A stretch of 64,000 nt of DNA from an uncultured Caulobacterales bacterium. GTDB lineage: Bacteria; Pseudomonadota; Alphaproteobacteria; Caulobacterales; Maricaulaceae. Numbering within the stretch: position 1 is the stretch's first letter; every line of letters begins with the position of its first letter. The notes under the pieces were generated by a model. It ran no database searches, was not told where the DNA came from, and saw only the letters and a list, made by a program, of their open reading frames with translations. Location of the stretch: assembly GCA_964587545.1 (NCBI GenBank), contig CAZPLJ010000004.1:6710-70709 (forward strand), written 5' to 3'. This document shows, piece by piece, positions 7,308 to 49,411 of this stretch. A program made the position numbers and the translations under genes.

Positions 7308-9146
7308 TCAGCGCCGCCCAAATAGGCGCTCAATATCGGCGAGTTTTAACTCCACATAAGTCGGGCGGCCGTGATTACATTGGCCGCTATGAGGTGTGGC
7401 TTCCATCTGTCGAAGCAGGGCGTTCATCTCGGTGGCGTTGAGGCGACGCCCGGCCCGCACAGAGCCGTGACAGGCCATGGTCCCGCAGACGTGCTCAAAC
7501 TTTTCTTTTAAGGACAGAGCCTCATCATATTCCGCCAGATCATCGGCGAGGTCACGTAAAAGACCTTGGACATTGACTTCACCCAAAAGAGCCGGGGTTT
7601 CGCGCACAGCAATCGCACCTTCCCCAAAGGGCTCAATTATAAGCCCCATTTCGGCGAGTTCCTCTGAACGGGCCAAAACTCGCGTGATATCCACCTCATC
7701 CATGTCGACGATGTCGGGAATTAAAAGTGCTTGGCGCTCAACGCCTTTGTCGGCCATGGCGGCCTTCATGCGCTCATAGACAAGACGCTCATGGGCTGCG
7801 TGTTGATCGACAATGACGATACCGTCAGAAGTTTGCGCAACCACATAGGTTTCATGCAGCTGCGCGCGCGCCGCCCCTAACGGGTTGCTGGTGTAATCAG
7901 CTGGGGCGTCAGAACCATTGGGGTGCCCCATATAAGGCTCCGCCATTTCTTCAACCTTGGCGGAAAACCCGTCGACCAAAGGCTGCATGGCGGGATCATT
8001 GTGAAAGGGTGCCATGTTGGGCGGGCGGTATCCGTAATTGCCTTGCAGCGGCATGGTTGAGCCCGCTTGAATTTTCCCAAGGGCGTAATCTGAAACGGTC
8101 GTGCTGGCTTTATGTCCTGCGCCAGCGAGCGCATGCCGGAGGGCTGAGACGATAAGACCACGCACAAGACCGGGATCGCGAAAGCGCACTTCGGTTTTGG
8201 CTGGGTGCACATTCACATCGACATGGGTGCCCGGAAGATCGACATAAAGTGCAACCACTGGATAGCGGTCTCGGGCCAGAAAATCCTGATAAGCGCCTCG
8301 TACGGCCCCGTGGAGGAGTTTGTCTTTAACCGGGCGGTTATTGATAAAAAGATATTGATGCTGGCTATTGCCGCGCGAATAGGTCGGGAGGCCCGCAAAA
8401 CCTGTCAGGTGAATACCTTCGCGCTCGGCATCAATCGCGAGCGCATTATCGCCAAAGTCCCGTCCCAATATGGCCGCCAGACGCGCTAGCCTTCCGTCAT
8501 TATCACCGCTCTGCGCCACCGTTTTTAAAACATTTCGCGTGCCTGAGGATAAGGTCATCCCCACAGAGGGGTTAGCCATAGCGAGCCGCTTGACCATATC
8601 GGAAATAGCCATGCTTTCACTGCGCTCAGATTTTAAAAACTTCAACCGCGCCGGGGTTGCGTAAAAGAGATCACGAACTTCGACTTTTGTGCCGGATAGG
8701 CCCAAACGCGGGGCAGGGCGAGGCCCCTCAATTTTGCCGCCCTCACATATTATTTCCCATGCGCTATCGGCATTGAGCGTTTGCGAGGTTATTGTTACTC
8801 GCGCCACCGAGCCAATAGAGGGGAGGGCTTCGCCGCGAAATCCCATTGTATCGATATTGAGGAGATCCCATTCGCCCTCCGAGTTAGGGGAGAGTTTAGA
8901 CGTCGCGTGTCGTTCCAGCGCAATGGGGAGTTCTTCGGCGCTCATGCCTTTCCCGTCATCGGTAATGGAGATCAAGGTTCGGCCTCCGTCTTCATAGCGG
9001 ATATCTACCTGACGTGCGCCAGCATCTACGGCGTTTTCGACGAGCTCTTTAATCACGCTGGCCGGACGCTCGACCACTTCACCTGCGGCGATGCGGTTGA
9101 TCGTTTCAGGCGGTAAACGCCGAATCTGAGAGACGGGGTGGGTCAT
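7308..9146 (-). CDS. mutL: DNA mismatch repair protein MutL
   Basis: 612 aa with a GHKL ATPase N-terminus ([31 protein letters not shown]) and a C-terminal endonuclease-type motif ([12 protein letters not shown]). Confidence 0.95.
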
Positions 9147-9322
9147 TTCATGATTTTAAGTTTTTTTGGTAGCAAAGTCATTCTGATTTAAATTAATTCT
9201 ACAGCACTACTTTAATTGCGTATTAAAATGTGATAGTCCTAATAGGATGAGGGGCGCTCCTTAGAGTTAGAATTGATGACTTCGCTTCGGGCATCCCCTA
9301 TGGCTACGGAGGCATTTTTCTT

Positions 9323-9991
9323 ATGAAAGCGACTGAATGGATTGCAATATTTGTGTCAGTAGTTGCGTTAGGCACGAGTTTAGGAAGCTACATGTTAGCC
9401 CAAAAAGCTTGGGGAATTCAAAAGACTGAATTTGAAGGGAAATACAAACCCGTTTGGTCGACAAGTGTGGAAAAAAATGAAATTTTATTCAAAAACTTAG
9501 AGTCCTATCAAACGCCACAATACCTGATGGTTCGACCTCCAGATGACATCATAGGGGGTAGTAAGTCCTGGCTTCTAAGCCTTTCAGACGCGAGGATTGA
9601 CTTCGATGAAATTCGCGAAAACACGATTGCTTCAATTCGGGAAAGTCTATCTTATTCTTTTACTGGGCATGCTGTGTTTCATATCCCCTTGATAGTGCAT
9701 ACCAATTTTACAGTTAATGGGGAAAATTTTAAAGACACGTCGCAATATTTTTTGTTGGTTTTGTTTGAGATAAAAGAAAGAGAGAAGGAGTGCTTTACGG
9801 AACCTAAGTCCGACACAGGGTGCTTAGAGTATAGTGCTAATCCCGTGGATTTGATTTTTCACAAAAGGATAGACGCTAACCGTATTGAATCACAATATGA
9901 TGAATTTATAAATGTTGAATGGGCAAATCGAAAATCAAGAACTATAAATAAATGGAGTGGAGTGAAAGTAGGGCAGAAATTAGACAAATAG
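9323..9991 (+). CDS. hypothetical protein with N-terminal TM anchor
   Basis: 222 aa ORF that is visibly more AT-rich than its neighbours. It has one N-terminal hydrophobic helix and no recognisable motif. Confidence 0.45.
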   Translation: MKATEWIAIFVSVVALGTSLGSYMLAQKAWGIQKTEFEGKYKPVWSTSVEKNEILFKNLESYQTPQYLMVRPPDDIIGGSKSWLLSLSDARIDFDEIRENTIASIRESLSYSFTGHAVFHIPLIVHTNFTVNGENFKDTSQYFLLVLFEIKEREKECFTEPKSDTGCLEYSANPVDLIFHKRIDANRIESQYDEFINVEWANRKSRTINKWSGVKVGQKLDK

Positions 9992-10044
9992 TTTTAAAAT
10001 AAAGGCTTCTCTTTTCCTTTTTTAAGCGTAATTTTTTTCTACCT

Positions 10045-11040
10045 TTACTTCTTCATCCCATGCTTTCTGAGTAATCCTCGAAATGAATGATAGGTTAGGC
10101 CCAGATAATCCGCTGCCTTGCCCTGATGGTGATTATGGGTGGTGAGCGCCTCGTCAATGAGGCCGCGTTCAAATGTTATCACACGCTCTGTGAAATCTGT
10201 TGTTGGCGCAGTTTGCGGCTCGGTATTTTCCGGGGCGTTCCGAGTATTAACGGTGGTCGTGGTTGGGATATTGTTACCCCACGGACTTTTTAGCGGATTC
10301 AACTCTATAGTCGATATAGGTCCGCTAAGCGTTTCATCCGCCAGATAAGCTCGGGTCACAGAGCGTTCAATCACGCTTTTCAATTCTCGGCTGTTGTTTG
10401 GCCAATCATAGGCTATCAATATATTCATCGCTTCCGGGGTCAGACCTGGAAAACGTTCCGCCCCCAATGATGAGACCATTTTGCGACCATAATGCAGGGT
10501 TAATGGCGCGATATCATCTTTGCGCAGTCTTAAGGGCGGGATATGGACCACGTCAAAGGCAATTCGGTTGAGAAAGTCGACGCGTATCTGACCATGGTCC
10601 ACAGCCTGAACGGGGTTTTCTGATATAGACACGATAAAGCGGATATCAATGCTTTGTTCGCCTAGCCCGTCAAACGCATCAAACTCATTATATTCTATCA
10701 CATGTAAAAGCCGCTCTTGCGCAGCTGGGGTGAGTGCGTTGATGTTTTCCAGAAATAATGTGCCGTCATGGGCGCGGGTAAATAAGGCGTCTTGATTATC
10801 ATTGCCATACATTATCCCTTCAAAGGTTTCCGCGTCATGGGCCGCACAATTGATTGAATGATAGCTTTGTTCCCAGCGGGGAGAGAGGAAATGCAAGCGC
10901 GAGGCAATCTGTTCCTTGCCCGTCCCAGACTCTCCGAGGATTAAAATCGGCTTATTAATGGTGGCAATGTCCGACACCCAGTCGAGCAGGGCATGAAATT
11001 CTTGCGATTCACCAATGAGTTGGGGTGGTATAGTAGCCAT
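10045..11040 (-). CDS. pspF: PspF-like AAA+ enhancer-binding-type regulator (no receiver domain; GAFTGA loop absent)
   Basis: Walker A GESGTGKE, RIAFDVVHIPPLRLR, WPNNSRELKSVIERS, and a C-terminal Fis-type HTH (GKAADYLGLTYHSFRGLLRKHG). It is divergent from pspA. Confidence 0.8.
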   Translation of the reverse strand: MATIPPQLIGESQEFHALLDWVSDIATINKPILILGESGTGKEQIASRLHFLSPRWEQSYHSINCAAHDAETFEGIMYGNDNQDALFTRAHDGTLFLENINALTPAAQERLLHVIEYNEFDAFDGLGEQSIDIRFIVSISENPVQAVDHGQIRVDFLNRIAFDVVHIPPLRLRKDDIAPLTLHYGRKMVSSLGAERFPGLTPEAMNILIAYDWPNNSRELKSVIERSVTRAYLADETLSGPISTIELNPLKSPWGNNIPTTTTVNTRNAPENTEPQTAPTTDFTERVITFERGLIDEALTTHNHHQGKAADYLGLTYHSFRGLLRKHGMKK

Positions 11041-11202
11041 ATTTAGTAATATAAACCAAAATATATCGAAGTAAATAGCGAAAAAATAGTCAAAAAAACT
11101 AAATAAATTAATGCGGTTTTTAAGAAATTAAAAAAATCAAATAAAAACAATAACTTAAAATGTCTCGACTCTTTGGCATGATTTGAAGATTATGAATTTG
11201 TC

Positions 11203-11222
11203 GCTGATCACTACCGATCAGC
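11203..11222. promoter_or_regulatory. perfect 7-bp inverted repeat GCTGATC-N6-GATCAGC flanked by direct AATTTG repeats
   Basis: Read directly from the sequence in the pspF-pspA intergenic region. It is a candidate operator or RNA hairpin of unknown function. Confidence 0.3.
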
Positions 11223-11252
11223 AATTTGAAAAGGCCAAAAAGGAGAGAGATA

Positions 11253-11402
11253 ATGACCTTTCGCACATTTGACATAGATGCAGGTCACGCCGCCCCAAGC
11301 ACAGACGTGACTGCTCCAGCCCGCCGAGTTCGCAGCCGCCGCCGCCACTTGGCCCTTACAAGCCGCTCTGGTGGCGTCCGCCTTGTCGGTTTCGGTATCT
11401 AA
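11253..11402 (+). CDS. candidate small ORF (49 aa, Arg-rich)
   Basis: A strong SD (AAAAAGGAGAGAGATAATG) precedes it. Hand translation is MTFRTFDIDAGHAAPSTDVTAPARRVRSRRRHLALTSRSGGVRLVGFGI. No family was recognised. Confidence 0.25.
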   Translation: MTFRTFDIDAGHAAPSTDVTAPARRVRSRRRHLALTSRSGGVRLVGFGI

Positions 11403-11417
11403 CCGGGACCCGCGCAG

Positions 11418-11594
11418 ATGTCATACAGAGACAGAGATGAAATGGGCCGCATGTTCGAAGACCATGCGGGCCGTCTTGAGACCACGGAAGAATGGAAAAT
11501 CAAGTTTTTCAAATTCCTACGTTATCTATCAACACGCCATGTAGAATGTTGGGGCTTTTTCGCCGCCGGTTTTCTTATCGCGACAATATTCTAA
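11418..11594 (+). CDS. candidate small tail-anchored membrane protein (58 aa)
   Basis: Hand translation is MSYRDRDEMGRMFEDHAGRLETTEEWKIKFFKFLRYLSTRHVECWGFFAAGFLIATIF. It ends 24 nt before the pspA ATG and is just under the track cutoff. Confidence 0.3.
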   Translation: MSYRDRDEMGRMFEDHAGRLETTEEWKIKFFKFLRYLSTRHVECWGFFAAGFLIATIF

Positions 11595-11618
11595 CCCAAA
11601 GCCGAACAGGAGACGACA

Positions 11619-12314
11619 ATGGGAATTTTTTCTAGAATGGGTGATATCATCAACTCCAATCTCAACGCCATGATTGACAAGGCAGAGAACCCGGAGAAGA
11701 TCGCCCGCCTTATTATCCAGGAAATGGAAGACACGCTCGTTGAGGTTCGCACTGATGCCGCTCGCAATATTTCCGAGCGCAAAGAGCTGACCCGCAAAGT
11801 GGAAGCCTATAAAGAACGCGCCAAGGAATGGGGTTCTAAAGCCGAGCTCGCCTTGACTAAAGATCGCGAAGACCTGGCTAGAGGTGCGTTGCAGGCCAAA
11901 CAGCAGGCTGAGAATATGGCTGATGTTGTGGCTGGCGAGATAGATATTCTCGATGAAGCTGTCGGGAAGGCCGATGCCGATCTGGCGAAGCTTCAAACCA
12001 AGCTGGATGAGGCTCGTGCCAAGCATAAAGCTCTTATGATGCGCGGTAATGTGGCCAAGAACCAGATCAAGATGCGCTCCAAAATGACAGATCATCGTGT
12101 GGATGATGCCTTGGCTCGCTATGAGCGTATGGAGCGTAAAGTCGACGAACTTGAAGCCCAAGTCGAAGCCTTTGATCTGGGGCAGGGTGAGAGCTTGGAG
12201 AGCCAGTTTGCTCAGCTAGAAGCTGACGAGTCTATCGAGGCTGAACTTGAAGCGCTTCGCTCAAGCCTGAAAAAATCAAAAGTGGCGTCCGTGAAGAAGG
12301 CCGCCAATAAATAA
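11619..12314 (+). CDS. pspA: phage shock protein A (PspA/IM30 family)
   Basis: 231 aa coiled-coil protein with the canonical N-terminus MGIFSRMGDIINSNLNAMIDKAENPEKIARLIIQEMEDTLVEVR. Confidence 0.95.
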   Translation: MGIFSRMGDIINSNLNAMIDKAENPEKIARLIIQEMEDTLVEVRTDAARNISERKELTRKVEAYKERAKEWGSKAELALTKDREDLARGALQAKQQAENMADVVAGEIDILDEAVGKADADLAKLQTKLDEARAKHKALMMRGNVAKNQIKMRSKMTDHRVDDALARYERMERKVDELEAQVEAFDLGQGESLESQFAQLEADESIEAELEALRSSLKKSKVASVKKAANK

Positions 12315-12401
12315 ACACATAGCTGGTCGGGTGATACCTACCCCCCTTCGAAAATTCATCCGGCCAGCGCCCCTTAAAGAGAGAGAAAGAGAGAATTTAA
12401 A

Positions 12402-12647
12402 ATGGAAGGTATATTAGCATTATCTATCCCTATCATAGCCGTCGGTGGCGGCATCATCATGATCATGTTCAATAATTACTTGAAACATAAAGAACGCATG
12501 ATGAACCATATGAGCGGGGATCAAGTGGCGGAGTTGGAACGTATGTCTCGTATCGCCGATATTTTGGATCAACGCGTGAATGTTCTGGAAAACATTCTGG
12601 ATGACGAAATCCCAAACTGGAGAGAGAACCATGACAAAACGATCTAA
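12402..12647 (+). CDS. pspB: envelope stress response membrane protein PspB
   Basis: 81 aa with a single N-terminal TM then a helical tail (ELERMSRIADILDQRVNVLENIL). It lies between pspA and pspC. Confidence 0.85.
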   Translation: MEGILALSIPIIAVGGGIIMIMFNNYLKHKERMMNHMSGDQVAELERMSRIADILDQRVNVLENILDDEIPNWRENHDKTI

Positions 12648-13110
12648 GAGACAGTATAAAAACTGGGCCGACCGGATGACGCATGACATGTATTGGGACG
12701 GTGAGGACGACGGTTACGAATATTCGGAGCCGAATAAGCGCCTGAGACGCAATAAAATCGACGGAGTTGTCGGCGGTGTCTGTGCCGGGCTCGGAGATTT
12801 TTTCAATCTCGACCCGCTTATTGTAAGAGGCATTTTTATCGCGCTAATCTTTTTCACAGGGTTGCCTCTGATTGTGTATCCGATCCTTTGGGTCTGTTTG
12901 CCATCTGATAAACGTGCCCCATACCGCAGGGAATATCGTGAAGCTCGCAAAGCCCGCCAGAAAAACCCCGAAGCCCCGGTTCGTACGGCTAGCTTTCGAG
13001 ACGTCAAATCCAAGTTCCGCTCACTGGAGACACGCCTGCAAGATTTGGAACGCTCTATCACGTCAAAAGAATGGCAGCTTCGCCGCCAGTTCAAAGATTT
13101 GGAAAATTAA
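12631..13110 (+). CDS. pspC: envelope stress response membrane protein PspC
   Basis: PspC domain (LRRNKIDGVVGGVCAGLGDFFNLDPLIVRGIFIAL). The ATG at 12631 is preceded by GGAGAGAG and overlaps the end of pspB. Confidence 0.85.
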   Translation: MTKRSKRQYKNWADRMTHDMYWDGEDDGYEYSEPNKRLRRNKIDGVVGGVCAGLGDFFNLDPLIVRGIFIALIFFTGLPLIVYPILWVCLPSDKRAPYRREYREARKARQKNPEAPVRTASFRDVKSKFRSLETRLQDLERSITSKEWQLRRQFKDLEN

Positions 13111-13169
13111 AAGAGAGAGCGGGCTTGCTGATAATATATTGGCTGGCCCGACATTAAGAGAGATAAAAC

Positions 13170-13379
13170 ATGATTAAAGCCATCACGATAACCCTTATAA
13201 GTGCTGGCGTCATCGGAACGGGCGCCCACACTTTCCAACCTGAAGCTCTAGAACTCACAACGGGATCAGCCTTGCTCGAAATGAGCGTCAAGGGGCTCAT
13301 CATAAAAACAACGGATAATCCTGATTTCGCTATTTCTTTGCGATTGAAGGATGAGCGCAGACTGAGCTTACGTCTGTAA
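13170..13379 (+). CDS. hypothetical small protein (69 aa) within the psp operon
   Basis: The ORF has a hydrophobic N-terminus and lies between pspC and the GSGD-repeat gene on the same strand. No family was recognised. Confidence 0.4.
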   Translation: MIKAITITLISAGVIGTGAHTFQPEALELTTGSALLEMSVKGLIIKTTDNPDFAISLRLKDERRLSLRL

Positions 13380-13404
13380 GCGCACTTAATAGGTAAGAGA
13401 AAAG

Positions 13405-14496
13405 ATGAAACTAAGATATTTGATTTTAACGACAGCTTTGATAGCGCTCGTGTCCACGCCCGCTTTCGCAGACGACCCTAGTGTCACGATAAAAAATTAC
13501 GTTGGTAAAATTACAATTGAGACCTCGCCAAAATACACCTTGGACATTTCAAACCAAACCACTAGCGAAGATGTTGATCTTGATGAAACGGGCTCCGAGC
13601 TAATTATTGACGGTGGAATTGACGATCCGGACGGAAAAAAATGCAAAGGTTACTATGGTAAGTCTAGCTGGTCCTGGTTTGGCAGAAAAGAAAAGCACAG
13701 CGATTTTGGAGGATATAAAGATCTGGATGACTACCCCAATATTACCGTTACGGCGCCTAAGACCGTTAAGGTCATAATCGACAATGCCATTCCATTTGGA
13801 AATATAGGAGATATTGGTAGCGCAGATATCTCCATGCCTTATTGCGGTCAGCTCGACATAGGCACTATCGCTAGTGACGCCATTTTCAATATTCGAGGAT
13901 CGGGGGATATAAATGCTGGTGACATCGGTAATCTTTATACATCTGTTCGCGGATCTGGAGATGTTGAGGTCGGCAATGTTGCAAGAGAAGCAAAGATTAA
14001 AGTGACTGGCTCTGGGGATATTGCCCTTGGAGACGCCAATGTTATCGAGCTGAGTGTAACAGGTTCGGGTGATGTGAGTTTTGGTGACGCTGAAACGGTC
14101 GAACTGACTGTAACGGGATCTGGTGACGTCGAAATAGGCAGCGTTTCCAAGAGCCTGGCAATGCGTAATCAGGGGTCCGGCGATATTAATGTTGAAACGG
14201 CTTTCGGCGAACTTAATTATGAGTCACGCGGGTCAGGTGATCTCGAAATAGAAGAGGCCAATGGCAAAGCCGATATTGATATCGGCGGTAGTGGTGATGT
14301 TGAAATTGATCAGGGTGATCTTAACTACCTCAAGGTTCGCTCCTCTGGTGCCAGTCATGTGGATATTGGCGGCGTGGTCAAGGACGCTGACCTACGAGCC
14401 CGCGGTGCCAGCGATATCTATCTGAATAAGGTAACAGGAGCCTTGATCCAAAAGGAAAGCGGGGCGGCAGACATCAACGTAAGTCGTCAAGACTAA
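13405..14496 (+). CDS. exported GSGD-repeat beta-helix-type protein (DUF2807 / head-GIN / Toastrack-like)
   Basis: Signal peptide (LIALVSTPAFAD). There are 8 exact GSGD[IVL] repeats about 20 aa apart, plus 3 degenerate ones. Confidence 0.7.
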   Translation: MKLRYLILTTALIALVSTPAFADDPSVTIKNYVGKITIETSPKYTLDISNQTTSEDVDLDETGSELIIDGGIDDPDGKKCKGYYGKSSWSWFGRKEKHSDFGGYKDLDDYPNITVTAPKTVKVIIDNAIPFGNIGDIGSADISMPYCGQLDIGTIASDAIFNIRGSGDINAGDIGNLYTSVRGSGDVEVGNVAREAKIKVTGSGDIALGDANVIELSVTGSGDVSFGDAETVELTVTGSGDVEIGSVSKSLAMRNQGSGDINVETAFGELNYESRGSGDLEIEEANGKADIDIGGSGDVEIDQGDLNYLKVRSSGASHVDIGGVVKDADLRARGASDIYLNKVTGALIQKESGAADINVSRQD

Positions 14497-45514: not shown

Positions 45515-46825
45515 TCAGTTTTGACTTGCGAGCAAATTATTATATCTGGGGCTTTTAAGTAGATTTACCGCTCTATCAATCTGATAATCTTGGTTATCAG
45601 ACCAGCCTTCGGGGGGGTAATCCAACTGCGATAAATCTTCCTCAAAATCGGTTTCATCTGGATTAGACAAAGCATTGTGAAAGCTGTCTTCACGAAAACG
45701 CTCTCGTGTTTCCCCGGTATCAGGTCTAAACGCGACCAAAAGATCCGGCATGATGCCTCGGCTCTGTATGGATTTCCCGGATGGTGTATAATAACGTTGG
45801 GTTGTCAAACGCAACGCTCCGCCATTGCCGTCTAATGACATAACGGATTGCACGGAACCTTTACCAAAAGATCTACGTCCCATGACGATGCCTCGACCTC
45901 TGTCCTGTATTGCACCGGCTAATATCTCAGCCGCTGAGGCAGATCGGCTATTAATTAAGACGACAATAGGGACATCTGAAACGAGCTCACCAGGGTCCGC
46001 ATTATAACGTTGGGTGTTATCAATCGTTCGGCCACGCGCAGAAAAGACCTCCCCACCATCGAGAAAATGGCTAGCGACTTCAACAGTTTGATCAACTAAT
46101 CCTCCGGGATTTCCTCTCACATCTATGACAAGGCCGGGTAATTGACTGCCAAGAGTGGCTTTTAGATCCTCGATTGCAAATTCTACATCCTTGCTTAGCC
46201 TCGGGTGATTGAAACTCTCAATGAAGATATAGCCAATACCATTTTCTTCTCTGTGACGGACGACACGCCCTTGGACGATTTCTCGTATGATTGTCACATC
46301 GCGGGGAACCTGACCTTCAGATAAGACGCTTACAATGATGGGATCACCCTCAAGGCCTCTCATGCCTTCCACGGCTTCACTTAAAGTTTTTCCTAGGACT
46401 TTTTCTCCTTCAACTTCGGTAATAAAGTCACCTCTTACTATTCCGGCTTTATCAGCCGGACCATCTGGAATGACATAATTTATTTTAACGAGTCCGGCTT
46501 CCATCGTCACTTCGATGCCTAGACCACCATATTCTCTGCGAGCCGTTTTTTGTCGTTCGACAAATTCCGTTCGTGGGATATAATGTGAATGAGGATCAAG
46601 AGCTTCCAAAGCCCCATTCAGGGCATTTGTCATAAGGTCATCATCCTCAATTTCTTCTACATAAAGATTACTGACTGTTGAAAAAACCTCAGCAAATAGT
46701 CTGAGCTTGTCATAGGTTTCTTCGGTGTTTTCATTGTCTGCATTGGCCAATACAAATGGCGCTAACAGGCAAAGCAACCCCGACAGACATGTCAGAGAGA
46801 GAATACGTAAGAATTTTGATATCAT
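45515..46825 (-). CDS. ctpA: S41 family C-terminal processing peptidase (copy 2)
   Basis: 436 aa with a PDZ region, catalytic segments INSRSASAAEILAGA and SFGKGSVQS. Its ATG overlaps the stop of copy 1. Confidence 0.9.
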   Translation of the reverse strand: MISKFLRILSLTCLSGLLCLLAPFVLANADNENTEETYDKLRLFAEVFSTVSNLYVEEIEDDDLMTNALNGALEALDPHSHYIPRTEFVERQKTARREYGGLGIEVTMEAGLVKINYVIPDGPADKAGIVRGDFITEVEGEKVLGKTLSEAVEGMRGLEGDPIIVSVLSEGQVPRDVTIIREIVQGRVVRHREENGIGYIFIESFNHPRLSKDVEFAIEDLKATLGSQLPGLVIDVRGNPGGLVDQTVEVASHFLDGGEVFSARGRTIDNTQRYNADPGELVSDVPIVVLINSRSASAAEILAGAIQDRGRGIVMGRRSFGKGSVQSVMSLDGNGGALRLTTQRYYTPSGKSIQSRGIMPDLLVAFRPDTGETRERFREDSFHNALSNPDETDFEEDLSQLDYPPEGWSDNQDYQIDRAVNLLKSPRYNNLLASQN

Positions 46826-48135
46826 TAATTCAGAGCAGCCAATCGATCTGAGTAAGATCCGTCTTTTAGTATTTCAATCGCACGCATGAGTTGGAAGTCA
46901 TCGTCCTCATCAAACGACGTCGGCGGATATTCGATTTCAACTGTTTCTTCTTCCTCTGTCTCTTGCTCCAATTCATTTTGGATAGAATTAGGTAAATCAG
47001 ACTCGCGGAGTGCGTCTTGATCCTCATCCTCAGCAAAAGCTGCGATTGCAATATCAGGGTCAATCCCTGTTCCTTGGATAGAACGTCCAGCGGGTGTGTA
47101 ATATCTTTGCGTGGTTAATCGCAAAGCTCCGTCACGTCCGCCTCGTAAAGGAATAATGGATTGTACGGACCCTTTGCCGAATGTCGTCATGCCAACCAAT
47201 AGACCGCGGCCGCGATCTTGAACCGCACCGGCAACAATCTCAGACGCGGATGCAGATGCCCCGTCAATTAAAACGACCAAAGGTACACCTTTGGCTAATT
47301 CACCGTTTTCAGCATTATAGCGTTCAGTATCGGTGGCGATCCGACCGCGTGTCGACACAACTTCTCCCCCGTCTAGGAAAGCACTACTGACTTTAATTGA
47401 CTGATCCAGAAGACCTCCGGGGTTACCGCGAAGATCAAGAACAATACCTGGCAAATTTTTACCAAGTTCTTTCTTGAGTGCCGCAATTGATTTTTTTAAG
47501 CCGTCGTCGGTTTTTTCATTAAACTGTGAAATGCGTAGATAACCAATACCATCTTTGACTTCATGTTTGACGACGGCGCGTTTGATGATTTCACGCACAA
47601 TTGTAAATTCTAACGGGTCTTCTTCACCACGGATTACAGTAATTGTAATAGGTTCATTTGGCTTGCCGCGCATCTTATCAACAGCTTCCGACAATGGGAG
47701 ACCAATAATGCTTTCACCTTCTATTTCGGTAATATAGTCGCCCGCCTTTATTCCGGCTCGTTTCGCAGGCGTATCATCAATCGGTGCAATCACCTTAACA
47801 ACGCCGCTCTCGGTCGTGACTTCCATGCCCAGTCCGCCATATTCGCCGCTAGTTGAGACTTGTAAGTCTTTAAAGCTATCCGGACCAACATAGCTAGAAT
47901 GTGGATCGAGAGATTGCAGCATCCCGTTAATGGCATCTTCTATAAGTTCAGCATCATCGACATCGACAACATATTCATTCCGCACGCGTGCCATGACGTC
48001 GGCAAACAATTCGAGCTGCTGGAATGTTTCTGCATGTGAAGAGCGCTCTTTGGCCAAAGCGGTATGTTGGTTAGACGCTAAAGCGATAACGCTAACAACT
48101 GCAAGGGTTCCTAAAGCGGGAAGGAAAAATTTCAT
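46825..48135 (-). CDS. ctpA: S41 family C-terminal processing peptidase (copy 1)
   Basis: 436 aa with a signal peptide, PDZ region, and catalytic segments IDGASASASEIVAGA and TFGKGSVQS. Confidence 0.9.
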   Translation of the reverse strand: MKFFLPALGTLAVVSVIALASNQHTALAKERSSHAETFQQLELFADVMARVRNEYVVDVDDAELIEDAINGMLQSLDPHSSYVGPDSFKDLQVSTSGEYGGLGMEVTTESGVVKVIAPIDDTPAKRAGIKAGDYITEIEGESIIGLPLSEAVDKMRGKPNEPITITVIRGEEDPLEFTIVREIIKRAVVKHEVKDGIGYLRISQFNEKTDDGLKKSIAALKKELGKNLPGIVLDLRGNPGGLLDQSIKVSSAFLDGGEVVSTRGRIATDTERYNAENGELAKGVPLVVLIDGASASASEIVAGAVQDRGRGLLVGMTTFGKGSVQSIIPLRGGRDGALRLTTQRYYTPAGRSIQGTGIDPDIAIAAFAEDEDQDALRESDLPNSIQNELEQETEEEETVEIEYPPTSFDEDDDFQLMRAIEILKDGSYSDRLAALN

Positions 48136-48196: not shown

Positions 48197-49411
48197 TTAA
48201 CCAGACTTTGCAAATGCCGTGCCTAGCCAAGGCGAAGGGTTAATGGTCGATCCGTCTTTTCTCAATTCGAGATAAAGTTCGGGTTTTGAGCGTGTCTGGT
48301 TTGGCATTATACCTAAAGGCTCACCTCTTTTCACGACTTCACCCGCTTTAGTATAAATTTCTCCTAGGCCAGTTAAGAGGATAAAATATCCATCGCCCAC
48401 GTTTAAAATAACGACATTTTCATAATTTTTAAATGGGCCAGAGAATTCTATTCGACCAGCATAAGGTGAGACCACTTGGGCTTTACCTGCGGTGGCAACC
48501 GTGAGACCTTTATTTGCACTGGAATAGCCTTTTTTGAGCTTACCTATCACAGGAGTTTGTAGTTTACCGCGTGCTTTTGAAAAACGAGGCGTGTCTGAGG
48601 GTAAAACCAAGGGTGTATTTGAGCGAGACGCACGGGGTTTTATCCGAGGATTTTCGCTATCTGAACGCGCATCGTCGTCACGTTCGGGTTTCAATCGGGG
48701 TTGAATGTCGCGCGCAGCAGATTCAAATTTTGCGATTAAATCTCTAAGATCATCAGCTTCTGAGGCTAGAGCGGCGACTCGTTTACGGACGGCTTGTTGA
48801 TCTTTGGAAATTGATTTTTCTAGCTTTGTTTTTTGTCCAACAAGTTGAGTAATAGATTTACGCTTTGTGCTCAGCGAGACTTCATTTCGCCTTAGTTTGT
48901 CTTGTTCGTCTGAGATACTCTCTTGCAGCTCAGTCAAATCATTTAATTCATCTGATAATATCTTAGCCTCGGACTTAAGTTCGACGCTGAGGGAGGACAT
49001 TAATCGTGCGGACCGGAAAGCCTCAGCCGCATCATTGGGCGAGACAAGTAGGGCCGGAGGTGGTGATTGCTCAATTCGTTGCAGAGCAGCCAGTAAACGC
49101 ATCACCGTTTTTTTATCCCCATAGATACGGTTTTTGATCTCAGCACTTTGAGTTTCCAAGGCATTAAGTTTGTTTTCAATGGACCGACCTTCTGTCTCAA
49201 TGGCTTTGGTGTCGGCCGCCAGTTTGGTCAGGTCAGCTTTCAAACGGCCAATGTCTTTTTGCACGGCCTCTCTTGTTTCGGAGAGTTCTTTTTCCCGTTG
49301 TTTTTCTTTTTCTTGAGCTTGCTTAATCTCATTAAGTCGATCGATATCGACACTTTGCGCGAAAGCCGGGCTCGAGATTAATAGAAAGCTTATGAACAGG
49401 AATCTGAACAT
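48197..49411 (-). CDS. EnvC-like murein hydrolase activator (coiled coil plus degenerate LytM/M23 domain)
   Basis: Signal peptide, a long coiled coil, and a C-terminal M23 fold. The Zn ligands are replaced: NKG for HxG, LTV for xDx, PELYLE for PHLHFE. Confidence 0.85.
   Translation of the reverse strand: MFRFLFISFLLISSPAFAQSVDIDRLNEIKQAQEKEKQREKELSETREAVQKDIGRLKADLTKLAADTKAIETEGRSIENKLNALETQSAEIKNRIYGDKKTVMRLLAALQRIEQSPPPALLVSPNDAAEAFRSARLMSSLSVELKSEAKILSDELNDLTELQESISDEQDKLRRNEVSLSTKRKSITQLVGQKTKLEKSISKDQQAVRKRVAALASEADDLRDLIAKFESAARDIQPRLKPERDDDARSDSENPRIKPRASRSNTPLVLPSDTPRFSKARGKLQTPVIGKLKKGYSSANKGLTVATAGKAQVVSPYAGRIEFSGPFKNYENVVILNVGDGYFILLTGLGEIYTKAGEVVKRGEPLGIMPNQTRSKPELYLELRKDGSTINPSPWLGTAFAKSG

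What the first reader, a model, noticed from the sequence alone, without database searches (positions are those of the whole stretch)
10045..11040. PspF-like activator lacks the GAFTGA sigma-54 contact loop and has an altered Walker B
Seen in sequence: the divergent regulator of pspA has a PspF-like domain-less AAA+ core with Walker A GESGTGKE, an R-finger region and a Fis-type HTH. Canonical bEBPs carry ...GAFTGA... upstream of GTLFLDE. This protein instead reads GIMYGNDNQDALFTRAHDGTLFLENI, so there is no GAFTGA or close variant, and the segment is about 8 residues shorter by my alignment to E. coli PspF from memory. The Walker B DE is replaced by EN. I also found no -24/-12 (TGGCAC-N5-TTGC) element with correct spacing upstream of pspA. 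Established knowledge: GAFTGA is needed to remodel sigma-54 holoenzyme, and the few bEBP relatives lacking it (for example HupR and TyrR) act with sigma-70. Inference: this psp locus may be controlled without sigma-54, possibly by an ATPase-impaired PspF acting as a sigma-70 activator or repressor that is still sequestered by PspA.
Basis: partly seen in the sequence, partly recalled or inferred. Interest (0 to 1): 0.6.

Follow-up and report, generated by a model that had tools for sequence, protein, structure and literature searches.

The report
PspF regulator that abandoned sigma-54
The regulator of this bacterium's membrane-stress (psp) genes descends from the textbook sigma-54 activator PspF, but it has lost the sigma-54 contact loop and its ATP-splitting residues, and its target promoter has lost the sigma-54 signature, so a model sigma-54 system has apparently been rewired to ordinary transcription.

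Summary
The 331-aa ORF at 10045-11040 (-) is the PspF orthologue, divergent from pspABC. A HMMER alignment to solved E. coli PspF shows a 9-residue gap exactly over 'AGAFTGAQK', and Walker B 'DE' reads 'EN'.

- **Not a one-off:** all 137 sampled members of this Hellea/Litorimonas-type clade lack GAFTGA, and none keeps the catalytic Glu (N 126, H 10, Q 1). Sensor-I Asn is almost gone and R162 is relaxed.
- **What is kept:** Walker A Lys, sensor-II Arg, the PspA-docking F/Y51-L52-W56 patch and the HTH are invariant or nearly so.
- **Single origin, still selected:** the clade is monophyletic, under purifying selection (dN/dS about 0.06), yet diverges three times faster than PspA.
- **Promoter:** all 13 canonical relatives carry a near-consensus TGGCACG-N4-TTGCW upstream of pspA. 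All 16 GAFTGA-less loci lack it, though rpoN is retained.
- **Architecture:** the upstream inverted repeats and an IHF-like site stay in place. A conserved TCGACa-N17-cAtATT sits where -24/-12 was, followed by a clade-specific 49-aa ORF.
- **Repeats:** two other lineages show the same triple loss independently.

Best reading: a sigma-54-independent PspF derivative that binds ATP without hydrolysing it and acts at a sigma-70-type promoter. It is a new variant of a known kind, and no transcript data were available.

The parts
10045..11040 (-). pspF-like gene (331 aa): an AAA+ core plus a Fis-type HTH, with no N-terminal sensor domain
   Evidence: The AlphaFold model has pLDDT 90.7. It superposes on the E. 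coli PspF AAA+ domain with TM 0.92-0.94 and rmsd about 1.9 A.
10912..10935 (-). Walker A GESGTGKE (residues 36-43), intact
   Evidence: K42 is conserved in 137/137 clade members. G36, G39, G41 and K42 are invariant in alignment A1.
10870..10893 (-). HFLSPRWE (residues 50-57), equivalent to the PspF 'YLW' patch / W56 loop that docks PspA
   Evidence: H50, F51, L52, S53, R55, W56 and E57 are invariant in A1. W56 is conserved 137/137. The role of Y51/L52/W56 comes from PMC3791423.
10783..10806 (-). Truncated loop 1 (G79-L86, GNDNQDAL) where GAFTGA should be; 9 residues are missing
   Evidence: phmmer alignment to PDB PspF; alignments of the clade and of relatives.
10744..10758 (-). Walker B LFLEN (residues 95-99): D107 equivalent is E, and the catalytic E108 equivalent is N
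   Evidence: The E108 position is N in 126, H in 10, Q in 1 and E in 0 of 137 clade members, against E in 13/13 canonical relatives.
10081..10173 (-). Fis-type HTH (residues 290-320)
   Evidence: PF02954 at 24.1 bits. The HQGKAA..L.LTYH.FRGLLRKHG motif is conserved in both clades.
11044..11058 (.). Inverted repeat TAGTAATATAAACCA (candidate PspF site 1). It abuts the pspF ATG, and its spacer carries a -10-like TATATT for pspF.
   Evidence: Motif T[AG]G[TC]-N7-[AG]C[TC]A lies at index +3 in 13 of the 16 GAFTGA-less loci, with L013 carrying it at index 13 and L017 and L027 having no first copy. A minus-strand promoter-like hit lies at 11075-11048. The motif is not enriched in the window as a whole (11 found, 11.4 expected), so the evidence is positional conservation only.
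11087..11101 (.). Inverted repeat TAGTCAAAAAAACTA (candidate PspF site 2)
   Evidence: At index +45 or +46 in 15 of the 16 GAFTGA-less loci, with L013 at index 36. The same motif is found upstream of the sigma-54 promoter in 8 of 13 canonical loci.
11145..11157 (+). IHF-like site AAACAATAACTTA (WAWCAR-N4-TTR)
   Evidence: At index 104-105 in 12 of the 16 GAFTGA-less loci and at 115 in L013 (13 of 16 in all), and at 109-124 in 5/13 canonical loci. A himA orthologue is present at 140 bits, above its cut-off.
11165..11193 (+). Putative sigma-70-type core promoter TCGACT-N17-GATTAT, sitting where canonical relatives have -24/-12. It contains a vestigial TGGCAT (11174-11179) with no correctly spaced GC.
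   Evidence: Conserved block TCGACa-N17/18-cAtATT in the clade alignment. In the 12 loci where the script placed the block correctly, it lies 63-64 bp from site 2 in 11 and 74 bp in L013; the script misplaced it in L018, L020, L024 and L033. The query copy matches only 8/12 consensus positions and was not called by the consensus scan. This part is inferred, not mapped.
11203..11222 (+). Perfect hairpin GCTGATC-N6-GATCAGC at the predicted 5' end of the transcript
   Evidence: The same hairpin folds in most clade members with changed stem letters.
11253..11402 (+). sORF-A, a 49-aa Arg-rich protein found only in the GAFTGA-less clade
   Evidence: A strong SD AAGGAGA lies at 11240-11246. Entropy by codon position is 0.68/0.47/1.21, and indels come in whole codons. 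Eleven unnamed database homologues, no Pfam hit.
11418..11594 (+). sORF-B, a 58-aa tail-anchored small membrane protein just upstream of pspA
   Evidence: Conserved in both clades (...RYLSTRxxECWGFFxAG...). In canonical relatives it lies downstream of the sigma-54 promoter. No Pfam hit.
11619..12314 (+). pspA
   Evidence: PF04012 at E 5.5e-42; TIGR02977 at 275 bits, above its cut-off. Identity within the clade is 80-90%.
12402..13110 (+). pspB (12402-12647) and pspC (ORF 12580-13110; true start uncertain)
   Evidence: PF06667 and PF04024 hits.

Best explanation
This is the true PspF orthologue of a Hellea/Litorimonas-type alphaproteobacterial clade, converted from a sigma-54 enhancer-binding ATPase into a sigma-54-independent transcription factor.

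Shown by sequence comparison:
- The sigma-54-contacting loop 1 is deleted and the pre-sensor-I loop has decayed.
- The hydrolysis residues are lost or relaxed (Walker B Glu, sensor-I Asn, and R162 in about half the clade).
- The nucleotide-binding residues (Walker A Lys, sensor-II Arg), the PspA-docking F51-L52-W56 patch, the lid domain and the HTH are kept under purifying selection.
- The sigma-54 promoter that canonical relatives carry in front of sORF-B-pspABC is gone. The upstream inverted repeats and the IHF-like site are still in place.

Inferred:
- The protein still binds ATP, which would act as an assembly ligand rather than a fuel. This resembles the E. coli E108Q mutant, which is hydrolysis-defective and forms constitutive hexamers.
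- It still binds the two upstream repeats and is still held in check by PspA through the W56 patch.
- With IHF-type bending it activates a weak sigma-70-family promoter (TCGACt-N17-GATTAT) that replaced -24/-12 in the same place. That promoter drives sORF-A, sORF-B and pspABC.
- Binding to site 1, which overlaps the -10 of its own apparently leaderless gene, would give autorepression, as in E. coli pspF.

Activation rather than repression is the least certain step.
For: - **Loop and Walker B:** the tool alignment to solved PspF shows the gap and the EN substitution.
- **Clade-wide pattern:** 120 database homologues plus 17 genome loci all lack GAFTGA. In 137 sequences K42 is kept in 137, W56 in 137 and R227 in 136. 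E108 is kept in 0, N149 in 6 and R162 in 72. All these positions are 13/13 in canonical relatives.
- **Fold:** intact (pLDDT 90.7; TM 0.92-0.94 to PspF).
- **Single origin:** one change on the tree, SH-aLRT 100.
- **Selection:** dN/dS is 0.06 for the closest pair. The PspF:PspA divergence ratio is 3.0 in this clade against 1.0 in canonical lineages.
- **Promoter:** 13/13 canonical loci score 16-19 of 19 for TGGCACG-N4-TTGCW at 200-390 nt upstream of pspA. The 16 GAFTGA-less loci score 13-16 at positions that are not conserved.
- **Sigma-54 itself:** rpoN is present in 39/41 relatives, including almost all GAFTGA-less genomes. There is no second PspF in this genome.
- **Retained architecture:** inverted repeats, an IHF-like site and a conserved -35/-10-like block, mostly at fixed spacing.
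- **Independent replicates:** L042 and L044 carry GAFTGA-less PspF with Walker B 'KD' and 'DA'. They have no sigma-54 promoter (best 13-14). Their PspA is 84% and 68% identical to canonical clades but only 54-57% to the main clade.
- **Precedents:** GAFTGA-less bEBP relatives that work at sigma-70 promoters include R. capsulatus NtrC (ATP binding, not hydrolysis, is needed), Caulobacter NtrC, VpsR, TyrR, DhaR and HupR. E108Q is hydrolysis-defective and a constitutive hexamer.
Against:
- The proposed -35/-10 in the query matches only 8 of 12 consensus positions and was not picked up by the consensus scan. Which sigma factor reads it is unknown.
- The inverted-repeat motif is too degenerate to be enriched in the window (11 found, 11.4 expected). 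Its support rests on conserved position alone.
- In E. coli PspA acts by inhibiting PspF's ATPase. If hydrolysis is already gone, what PspA binding would control is unclear.
- Sites centred near -106 and -149 are unusually far upstream for a sigma-70 activator.
- Independence of the extra losses is only weakly supported by the protein tree (AU p = 0.042, with groups named after seeing the tree). It rests mainly on PspA and sORF-B similarity.
Confidence: 0.65

Rival explanations
1. The protein is now only a DNA-binding repressor. It shuts off its own gene, and perhaps the psp operon, by occupying the upstream repeats or looping DNA, possibly with PspA as co-repressor. The sigma-70-type promoter would be constitutive or controlled by something else.
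For: Site 1 overlaps a -10-like TATATT immediately upstream of the pspF ATG, so autorepression is structurally plausible. TyrR, a GAFTGA-less relative, is mainly a repressor. A hydrolysis-dead, oligomerising AAA+ domain suits a repressor.
Against: No repeat overlaps the putative psp core promoter; the nearest lies about 63 bp upstream. The UAS-IHF-promoter geometry of the ancestral activator is preserved at near-constant spacing across the clade, and a pure autorepressor would not need that. The weak hexamers suggest the promoter depends on an activator.
Confidence: 0.2
2. The protein no longer acts on DNA-bound RNA polymerase at all. It survives as a PspA-binding partner (a buffer or chaperone for PspA), or as a subunit that poisons or modulates another bEBP in the cell.
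For: The PspA-docking patch is the most strictly conserved surface. The rest of the AAA+ domain evolves three times faster than PspA. Other scan notes describe loop-less bEBP homologues proposed as modulators (unchecked).
Against: The HTH is as conserved as in canonical PspF, and the paired inverted repeats keep their positions next to the gene, which argues for continued DNA binding. The only GAFTGA-type partners in the genome are a REC-type bEBP and an RtcR-like protein with unrelated functions.
Confidence: 0.08
3. The system is still sigma-54-dependent, using a non-canonical contact loop and a divergent -24/-12 promoter that simple scoring misses.
For: rpoN is retained. A vestigial TGGCAT lies at 11174-11179.
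Against: The contact loop is physically deleted, not substituted. The catalytic Glu and sensor-I Asn are gone in the whole clade. No GG-N10-GC element is positionally conserved in 16 loci, whereas 13/13 relatives have a near-consensus one. Single substitutions in GAFTGA already abolish activation (PMC3162934).
Confidence: 0.04
4. The gene is a decaying relic on its way to becoming a pseudogene.
For: Catalytic motifs are lost and the protein evolves three times faster relative to PspA. Its TIGR02974 score is below the cut-off.
Against: 137 full-length intact homologues across several genera. dN/dS is about 0.06. There are 50 invariant positions including Walker A, the W56 patch and the HTH. The fold is predicted with confidence.
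Confidence: 0.02

Closest known systems
E. coli PspF (sensor-less group-V bEBP; PDB 2bjw, 4qos, 5nss)
   Same: Orthologous position divergent from pspABC. Same domain plan (AAA+ core, lid, Fis-type HTH, no N-terminal sensor). 40% identity and rmsd about 1.9 A over the AAA+ domain. Walker A, sensor-II Arg and the Y/F51-L52-W56 PspA-docking patch are kept. Paired upstream sites plus an IHF-like site lie between the genes.
   Different: Loop 1 with GAFTGA is deleted (9 residues). Walker B DE reads EN (DN in most of the clade). Sensor-I Asn is lost and the pre-sensor-I loop is not conserved. The target lacks -24/-12. It scores below the TIGR02974 trusted cut-off.
Rhodobacter capsulatus NtrC and Caulobacter NtrC (alphaproteobacterial GAFTGA-less bEBPs acting at sigma-70 promoters)
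   Same: Loop 1 deletion inside an otherwise intact bEBP, in a genome that keeps sigma-54. Enhancer-like upstream sites. For RcNtrC, ATP binding rather than hydrolysis is required (as cited in 10.1101/2023.06.06.543975).
   Different: Those are receiver-domain response regulators of nitrogen control. This genome's own GAFTGA-less NtrX-like and NtrC-like paralogues keep Walker B DE. The PspF derivative has lost the catalytic Glu, has no receiver domain, and is presumably controlled in trans by PspA.
TyrR, DhaR, HupR, VpsR and NtrX (other sigma-54-independent bEBP homologues)
   Same: Defective or deleted GAFTGA, with sigma-70-dependent targets (PMC3162934, PMC6158489).
   Different: Different sensory domains, ligands and regulons. 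None belongs to the PspF orthologous group or is regulated by PspA.
PspF E108Q laboratory mutant (PDB 4qnm, 4qnr, 4qos)
   Same: Walker B Glu replaced by an amide residue. The mutant is hydrolysis-defective, binds ATP more tightly and forms constitutive hexamers (PMC4132715). These are the top structural matches of the model.
   Different: The mutant keeps GAFTGA and still engages sigma-54. The natural protein cannot.

Membership tests
Bacterial enhancer-binding proteins (functional sigma-54 activators, PF00158) | AAA+ sigma-54-interaction domain fold | tested here: met
   PF00158 at E 2.5e-30. The model matches PspF, NtrC1 and ZraR structures.
Bacterial enhancer-binding proteins (functional sigma-54 activators, PF00158) | GAFTGA loop 1 that contacts sigma-54 | tested here: not met
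   A 9-residue gap lies over 'agaftgaqk' in the alignment to solved PspF. The loop is absent in 137/137 clade members.
Bacterial enhancer-binding proteins (functional sigma-54 activators, PF00158) | Catalytic ATPase residues: Walker B Asp-Glu, sensor-I Asn, Arg fingers | tested here: not met
   The query has EN at Walker B and S at sensor I; R153 and R159 are present. In the clade, E108 is kept in 0/137, N149 in 6/137, R162 in 72/137 and R168 in 123/137.
Bacterial enhancer-binding proteins (functional sigma-54 activators, PF00158) | Target promoter of the -24/-12 (GG-N10-GC) class | tested here: not met
   The best score is 13/19 in the query spacer and 13-16 in 16 clade loci, against 16-19 in 13/13 canonical relatives.
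Bacterial enhancer-binding proteins (functional sigma-54 activators, PF00158) | rpoN present in the genome | tested here: met
   Sigma54_DBD at 217 bits in a 537-aa open frame on contig C53. Present in 39/41 relatives.
PspF orthologous group (TIGR02974 / PRK11608) | Score above the curated equivalog cut-off | tested here: not met
   TIGR02974 scores 300.4 bits against a cut-off of 443.55. NF008622 scores 247.5 against 529. PspF is still the best-scoring model by a wide margin.
PspF orthologous group (TIGR02974 / PRK11608) | Divergent synteny with pspA(BC), and descent from canonical PspF | tested here: met
   pspA is divergent in all 29 loci where it could be located. The clade nests among canonical PspFs of the same family and order.
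PspF orthologous group (TIGR02974 / PRK11608) | No N-terminal sensor domain; C-terminal Fis-type HTH | tested here: met
   The AAA+ domain starts at residue 8. HTH_8 covers residues 290-320.
PspF orthologous group (TIGR02974 / PRK11608) | PspA-docking 'YLW' patch (Y51, L52, W56) | tested here: met
   F51, L52 and W56 are invariant in A1. W56 is kept in 137/137. The patch is defined in PMC3791423. Actual PspA binding was not tested.
Sigma-54-independent bEBP derivatives (TyrR, RcNtrC, VpsR, NtrX, HupR type) | bEBP-type AAA+ domain with loop 1 / GAFTGA destroyed | tested here: met
Sigma-54-independent bEBP derivatives (TyrR, RcNtrC, VpsR, NtrX, HupR type) | Acts at sigma-70-family promoters | tested here: inconclusive
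   A conserved TCGACa-N17-cAtATT block replaces -24/-12. It is weak in the query (8/12) and no start site is mapped.
Sigma-54-independent bEBP derivatives (TyrR, RcNtrC, VpsR, NtrX, HupR type) | Nucleotide used as a ligand rather than a fuel | not testable with these tools
   Only inferred, from retained Walker A and sensor II together with lost Walker B Glu and sensor I.

The most novel reading that the evidence does not exclude
PspF, the model protein for how sigma-54 activators work, has repeatedly (at least three times in Caulobacterales-type alphaproteobacteria) left sigma-54 behind by the same route. Each time, loop 1 was deleted, the catalytic Glu was lost and the -24/-12 promoter was replaced in situ. 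The enhancer sites, the IHF-like bend and the PspA-docking patch were kept. In the resulting system ATP would be an assembly ligand. PspA would control oligomerisation or the RNA polymerase contact instead of ATPase activity. In the largest clade a newly arisen 49-aa Arg-rich protein (sORF-A) encoded at the head of the operon would be a new component of the psp response.
Probability: 0.35. Interest if true: 0.72.

Novelty: new variant of a known kind. Interest (0 to 1): 0.6.

Why it matters
PspF-PspA is the reference system for two things: sigma-54 activation by AAA+ enhancer-binding proteins, and their control in trans by an inhibitor that targets the ATPase.

This natural lineage keeps the inhibitor-docking surface, the DNA sites and the operon, but has discarded the sigma-54 contact, ATP hydrolysis and the sigma-54 promoter. 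That makes several questions testable:
- how an enhancer-dependent system is converted to a sigma-70-type one;
- what PspA binding does when there is no ATPase to inhibit;
- whether ATP binding alone can serve as a regulatory ligand.

There is also a practical point for annotation. Pipelines label these proteins 'sigma-54 interacting transcriptional regulator' or 'psp operon transcriptional activator'. Sigma-54 regulon predictions for these marine Hyphomonadaceae-type bacteria would therefore wrongly include the psp operon.

Tried and rejected
- **Rfam scan of 9000-14000:** no RNA family at E up to 1, so the GC-rich block in the spacer is not a known riboswitch or sRNA. It is coding (sORF-A).
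- **Window-wide test of the inverted-repeat motif:** not enriched (11 found, 11.4 expected). Only its conserved position can be used as evidence.
- **Consensus promoter scan:** it found TTGAAA-17-GATAAT at 11226-11254. I rejected this because its -10 overlaps the sORF-A start codon and it is not conserved in the other 15 loci.
- **A sigma-54-like TGGCGCGCAAAAGGCG recurring near -123 to -160 in several relatives:** rejected, because it is the codons for W-R-A-K-G-A inside sORF-B and is absent from the query.
- **The TGGCATGATTTGAAG at 11174:** considered as a shifted -24/-12. It has no GC at the right spacing and is not conserved, so it is at most a vestige.
- **Literature searches for a GAFTGA-less PspF:** nothing found. 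The 2024 PSP evolution survey left PspF out of its detailed analysis.
- **AU test for multiple origins:** only marginal (p = 0.042). The case for independence rests on PspA and sORF-B similarity.
- **A strong sigma-54-like site at 48224 (-) as a positive control in this genome:** its downstream gene is a CtpA-like peptidase, so it is not interpretable as a control.
Full report
**1. What is there**

The ORF at 10045-11040 on the minus strand encodes 331 aa. It lies divergent from pspA (11619-12314), pspB (12402-12647) and pspC (to 13110). Each of these was identified by Pfam and NCBIfam models.

The protein has a Sigma54_activat AAA+ domain, an AAA lid and a Fis-type HTH, and no N-terminal sensor. 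Its best NCBIfam model is TIGR02974 (pspF) at 300 bits. That is far ahead of NorR or NifA (about 150 bits) but below the 443-bit equivalog cut-off.

It puts a 9-residue gap exactly opposite 'AGAFTGAQK' and aligns PspF 'LFLDEL' with 'LFLENI'. Walker A (GESGTGKE) is intact.

An AlphaFold model built on 55 homologues has mean pLDDT 90.7. It superposes on PspF AAA+ crystal structures with TM 0.92-0.94 and rmsd about 1.9 A. The fold is therefore whole and only the loop is missing.

**2. It is a lineage, not an accident**

The window lies in a 2.66-Mb genome that is 98.7% complete. Database relatives of the protein are named Hellea, Litorimonas or Hyphomonadaceae.

All 120 best database homologues lack GAFTGA. 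They show either a 3-residue-shorter 'FMDGRDDTNGRF' loop or the 9-residue deletion seen here.

Among 40 related genomes, the PspF homologues of the same GTDB genus and of two sister genera lack GAFTGA. Five other genera of the family and four other families of the order have textbook GAFTGA and DE.

On a maximum-likelihood tree the loop-less proteins form one clade (SH-aLRT 100, one change) on a long stem.

Column counts over 137 loop-less sequences against 13 canonical ones:

| PspF position | Role | Loop-less clade | Canonical |
|---|---|---|---|
| K42 | Walker A | 137/137 | 13/13 |
| W56 | PspA docking | 137/137 | 13/13 |
| R227 | Sensor II | 136/137 | 13/13 |
| E108 | Walker B catalytic Glu | 0/137 (N 126, H 10, Q 1) | 13/13 |
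| N149 | Sensor I | 6/137 | 13/13 |
| R162 | Arg finger | 72/137 | 13/13 |

The pre-sensor-I loop is also unconserved in the loop-less clade. The segment H50-F51-L52-S53-x-R55-W56-E57 is invariant. It corresponds to the 'YLW' patch (Y51, L52, W56) through which PspA binds E. coli PspF (PMC3791423).

The gene is under purifying selection: dN/dS is 0.06 for the closest pair, similar to canonical pairs. It nevertheless diverges three times as fast as PspA within the clade (median identity 53% against 85%). In canonical lineages the two proteins diverge at equal rates, with a ratio of 1.0.

The picture is selective loss of the sigma-54-remodelling and hydrolysis parts. Nucleotide binding, PspA docking and DNA binding are retained.

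**3. The promoter changed with the protein**

I scored the pspF-pspA spacers of 29 loci for TGGCACG-N4-TTGCW.
- All 13 canonical loci have a near-consensus site (16-19 of 19, for example TGGCACGGTGCTTGCT). It lies 200-390 nt upstream of the pspA ATG.
- All 16 loop-less loci have only chance-level sites (13-16) at positions that are not conserved.
- The query's best score is 13.

Sigma-54 itself is not lost. rpoN is intact here and in 39 of 41 relatives; the two without it are incomplete assemblies.

The genome has no second PspF. Its other PF00158 proteins are:
- a REC-type bEBP with GSFTGA;
- an RtcR-like protein with GAYAGA;
- an NtrX-like protein without GAFTGA;
- an NtrC-like protein without GAFTGA.

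The last two both keep Walker B DE.

**4. What replaced it**

The 578-bp 'spacer' is not empty.

In both clades a small tail-anchored protein (sORF-B, 11418-11594) precedes pspA. In canonical relatives the sigma-54 promoter lies upstream of it.

The loop-less clade has an extra 49-56-aa Arg-rich ORF (sORF-A, 11253-11402). Three features mark it as a real gene:
- a conserved AAGGAGA Shine-Dalgarno sequence;
- whole-codon indels;
- third-position-biased variation (entropy 0.68/0.47/1.21).

Its only homologues are 11 unnamed metagenomic proteins.

Upstream, the clade alignment shows four conserved features:
- **Inverted repeats.** Two copies of T[AG]G[TC]-N7-[AG]C[TC]A lie next to the pspF start codon, at 11044-11058 and 11087-11101 in the window. 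The first copy lies at index +3 in 13 of 16 loci and the second at +45/+46 in 15 of 16. The same motif occurs upstream of the sigma-54 promoter in 8 of 13 canonical loci.
- **IHF-like site.** It lies at index 104-105 in 12 of 16 loci and at 115 in L013, and at a comparable place in 5 canonical loci. himA is present.
- **Promoter-like block.** TCGACa-N17/18-cAtATT (11165-11193) sits where canonical relatives carry -24/-12. In the 12 loci where the script placed the block correctly, it lies 63-64 bp from the second repeat in 11 and 74 bp in L013.
- **Hairpin.** A hairpin at the predicted 5' end (11203-11222) has stem letters that change between loci while pairing is kept.

So the enhancer architecture is retained and only the core promoter was exchanged.

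Three caveats apply. The repeat motif is too degenerate to be enriched in the window. The query's hexamers match only 8 of 12 consensus positions and were not called by the consensus scan.

**5. Independent replicates**

A search of 1.8 billion cluster representatives found further PspF-sized proteins with the W56 motif but without GAFTGA. The tree places several of them among canonical clades, and its well-supported branches force at least three changes. The AU test for a single origin is only marginal (p = 0.042).

Two of these proteins could be seen in context. Both sit in pspF || sORF-B-pspA-pspB-pspC loci without sORF-A.

| Locus | Walker B | Best sigma-54 promoter score | PspA identity to a canonical clade | PspA identity to the main loop-less clade |
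|---|---|---|---|---|
| L042 | KD | 13 of 19 | 84% | about 55% |
| L044 | DA | 14 of 19 | 68% | 54-58% |

The joint loss of loop, catalytic Glu and -24/-12 promoter therefore seems to have happened at least three times.

**6. Mechanism**

The sequence comparisons make it very unlikely that this protein contacts sigma-54, and leave no -24/-12 promoter for it to act on. Loss of ATP hydrolysis is inferred from the missing catalytic residues, not measured.

What follows is inference.
- With Walker A and sensor II intact and the Walker B Glu replaced by Asn, the protein should bind ATP but hydrolyse it poorly. The E. coli E108Q mutant behaves this way and forms constitutive hexamers (PMC4132715).
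- With its HTH and its sites conserved, it should still bind upstream of the operon.
- With the YLW patch invariant, it should still be bound by PspA.

The closest functional precedents are other GAFTGA-less bEBP relatives that work with sigma-70 holoenzyme. These include R. capsulatus NtrC (distant sites; ATP binding rather than hydrolysis), Caulobacter NtrC, VpsR, TyrR, DhaR and HupR.

I therefore favour an activator of a weak sigma-70-family promoter acting from the retained enhancer through an IHF-type bend. It would also repress its own, apparently leaderless, gene through site 1, whose spacer carries a -10-like TATATT.

A repressor-only role, a PspA-buffer role, residual sigma-54 dependence and pseudogene decay are the rivals. 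The last two are close to excluded.

One question stays open. In E. coli, PspA works by inhibiting the PspF ATPase. Here it would have to act on assembly, DNA binding or the polymerase contact instead.

**7. Novelty**

Sigma-54-independent bEBP derivatives are a known kind. I found no paper describing one within the PspF orthologous group. The 2024 survey of PSP evolution left PspF out of its detailed analysis.

The points that go beyond 'another loop-less bEBP' are:
- the loss of the catalytic Glu, which this genome's own loop-less NtrX-like and NtrC-like proteins keep;
- the exact co-loss of the target promoter with the enhancer retained;
- the probable recurrence in other lineages;
- the new small ORF.

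I rate it a new variant of a known kind, with interest 0.6.

Noticed in passing
window 11253-11402 (+): sORF-A is a 49-aa Arg-rich protein (MTFRTFDIDAGH...RSRRR...GFGI) with a strong SD. It shows a coding-type substitution pattern and is present only in the GAFTGA-less clade, as the first gene of the psp operon. No Pfam hit; 11 unnamed database homologues.
   Followed up: partly
window 11418-11594 (+): sORF-B is a 58-aa tail-anchored small membrane protein (...RYLSTRxxECWGFFAAGFLIATIF) immediately upstream of pspA. It is conserved across the whole order and lies downstream of the sigma-54 promoter in canonical relatives. It looks like an unannotated, undescribed member of alphaproteobacterial psp operons.
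   Followed up: partly
window 11203-11222 (+): Perfect hairpin GCTGATC-N6-GATCAGC at the predicted 5' end of the operon transcript. Relatives keep the pairing with changed stem letters, which suggests an RNA structure rather than an operator.
   Followed up: partly
window 11041-11075 (-): There is no Shine-Dalgarno sequence before the pspF-like ATG. A -10-like TATATT ends 8 nt upstream of it, inside inverted repeat 1. The pspF-like mRNA may be leaderless and autorepressed.
   Followed up: no
G000 contig C2:49550-50932 (+), outside the window: An NtrC-like response regulator has a much larger deletion covering the whole GAFTGA region (...RPFLRTTDFSNLSLTLQKVNGGDIYIDEV) but keeps Walker B DE. This is reminiscent of Rhodobacter capsulatus NtrC.
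   Followed up: no
G000 contig C34:21636-23231 (-), outside the window: An RtcR-like bEBP carries the loop variant GAYAGA instead of GAFTGA.
   Followed up: no
L042:2272-3318 and L044:2390-3430 (metagenome contigs): Two further PspF orthologues from other lineages lack GAFTGA, the Walker B Glu and a sigma-54 promoter, apparently independently. In L042 the remnant TGGTCGTACGCA looks like a shortened copy of the TGGCACGGCTTTCGCA found in its close canonical relatives.
   Followed up: partly
window 48209-48224 (-): AGGCACGGCATTTGCA is the best sigma-54-promoter-like site in the window (18 of 19). It lies at the end of an M23/EnvC-like gene and 74 nt upstream of a CtpA-like S41 peptidase gene (46825-48135).
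   Followed up: no
window 11619-12314 (+) versus 10045-11040 (-): Within the clade PspA is unusually conserved (median 85% identity) while the regulator is at 53%. In canonical lineages both are at about 57-58%.
   Followed up: yes
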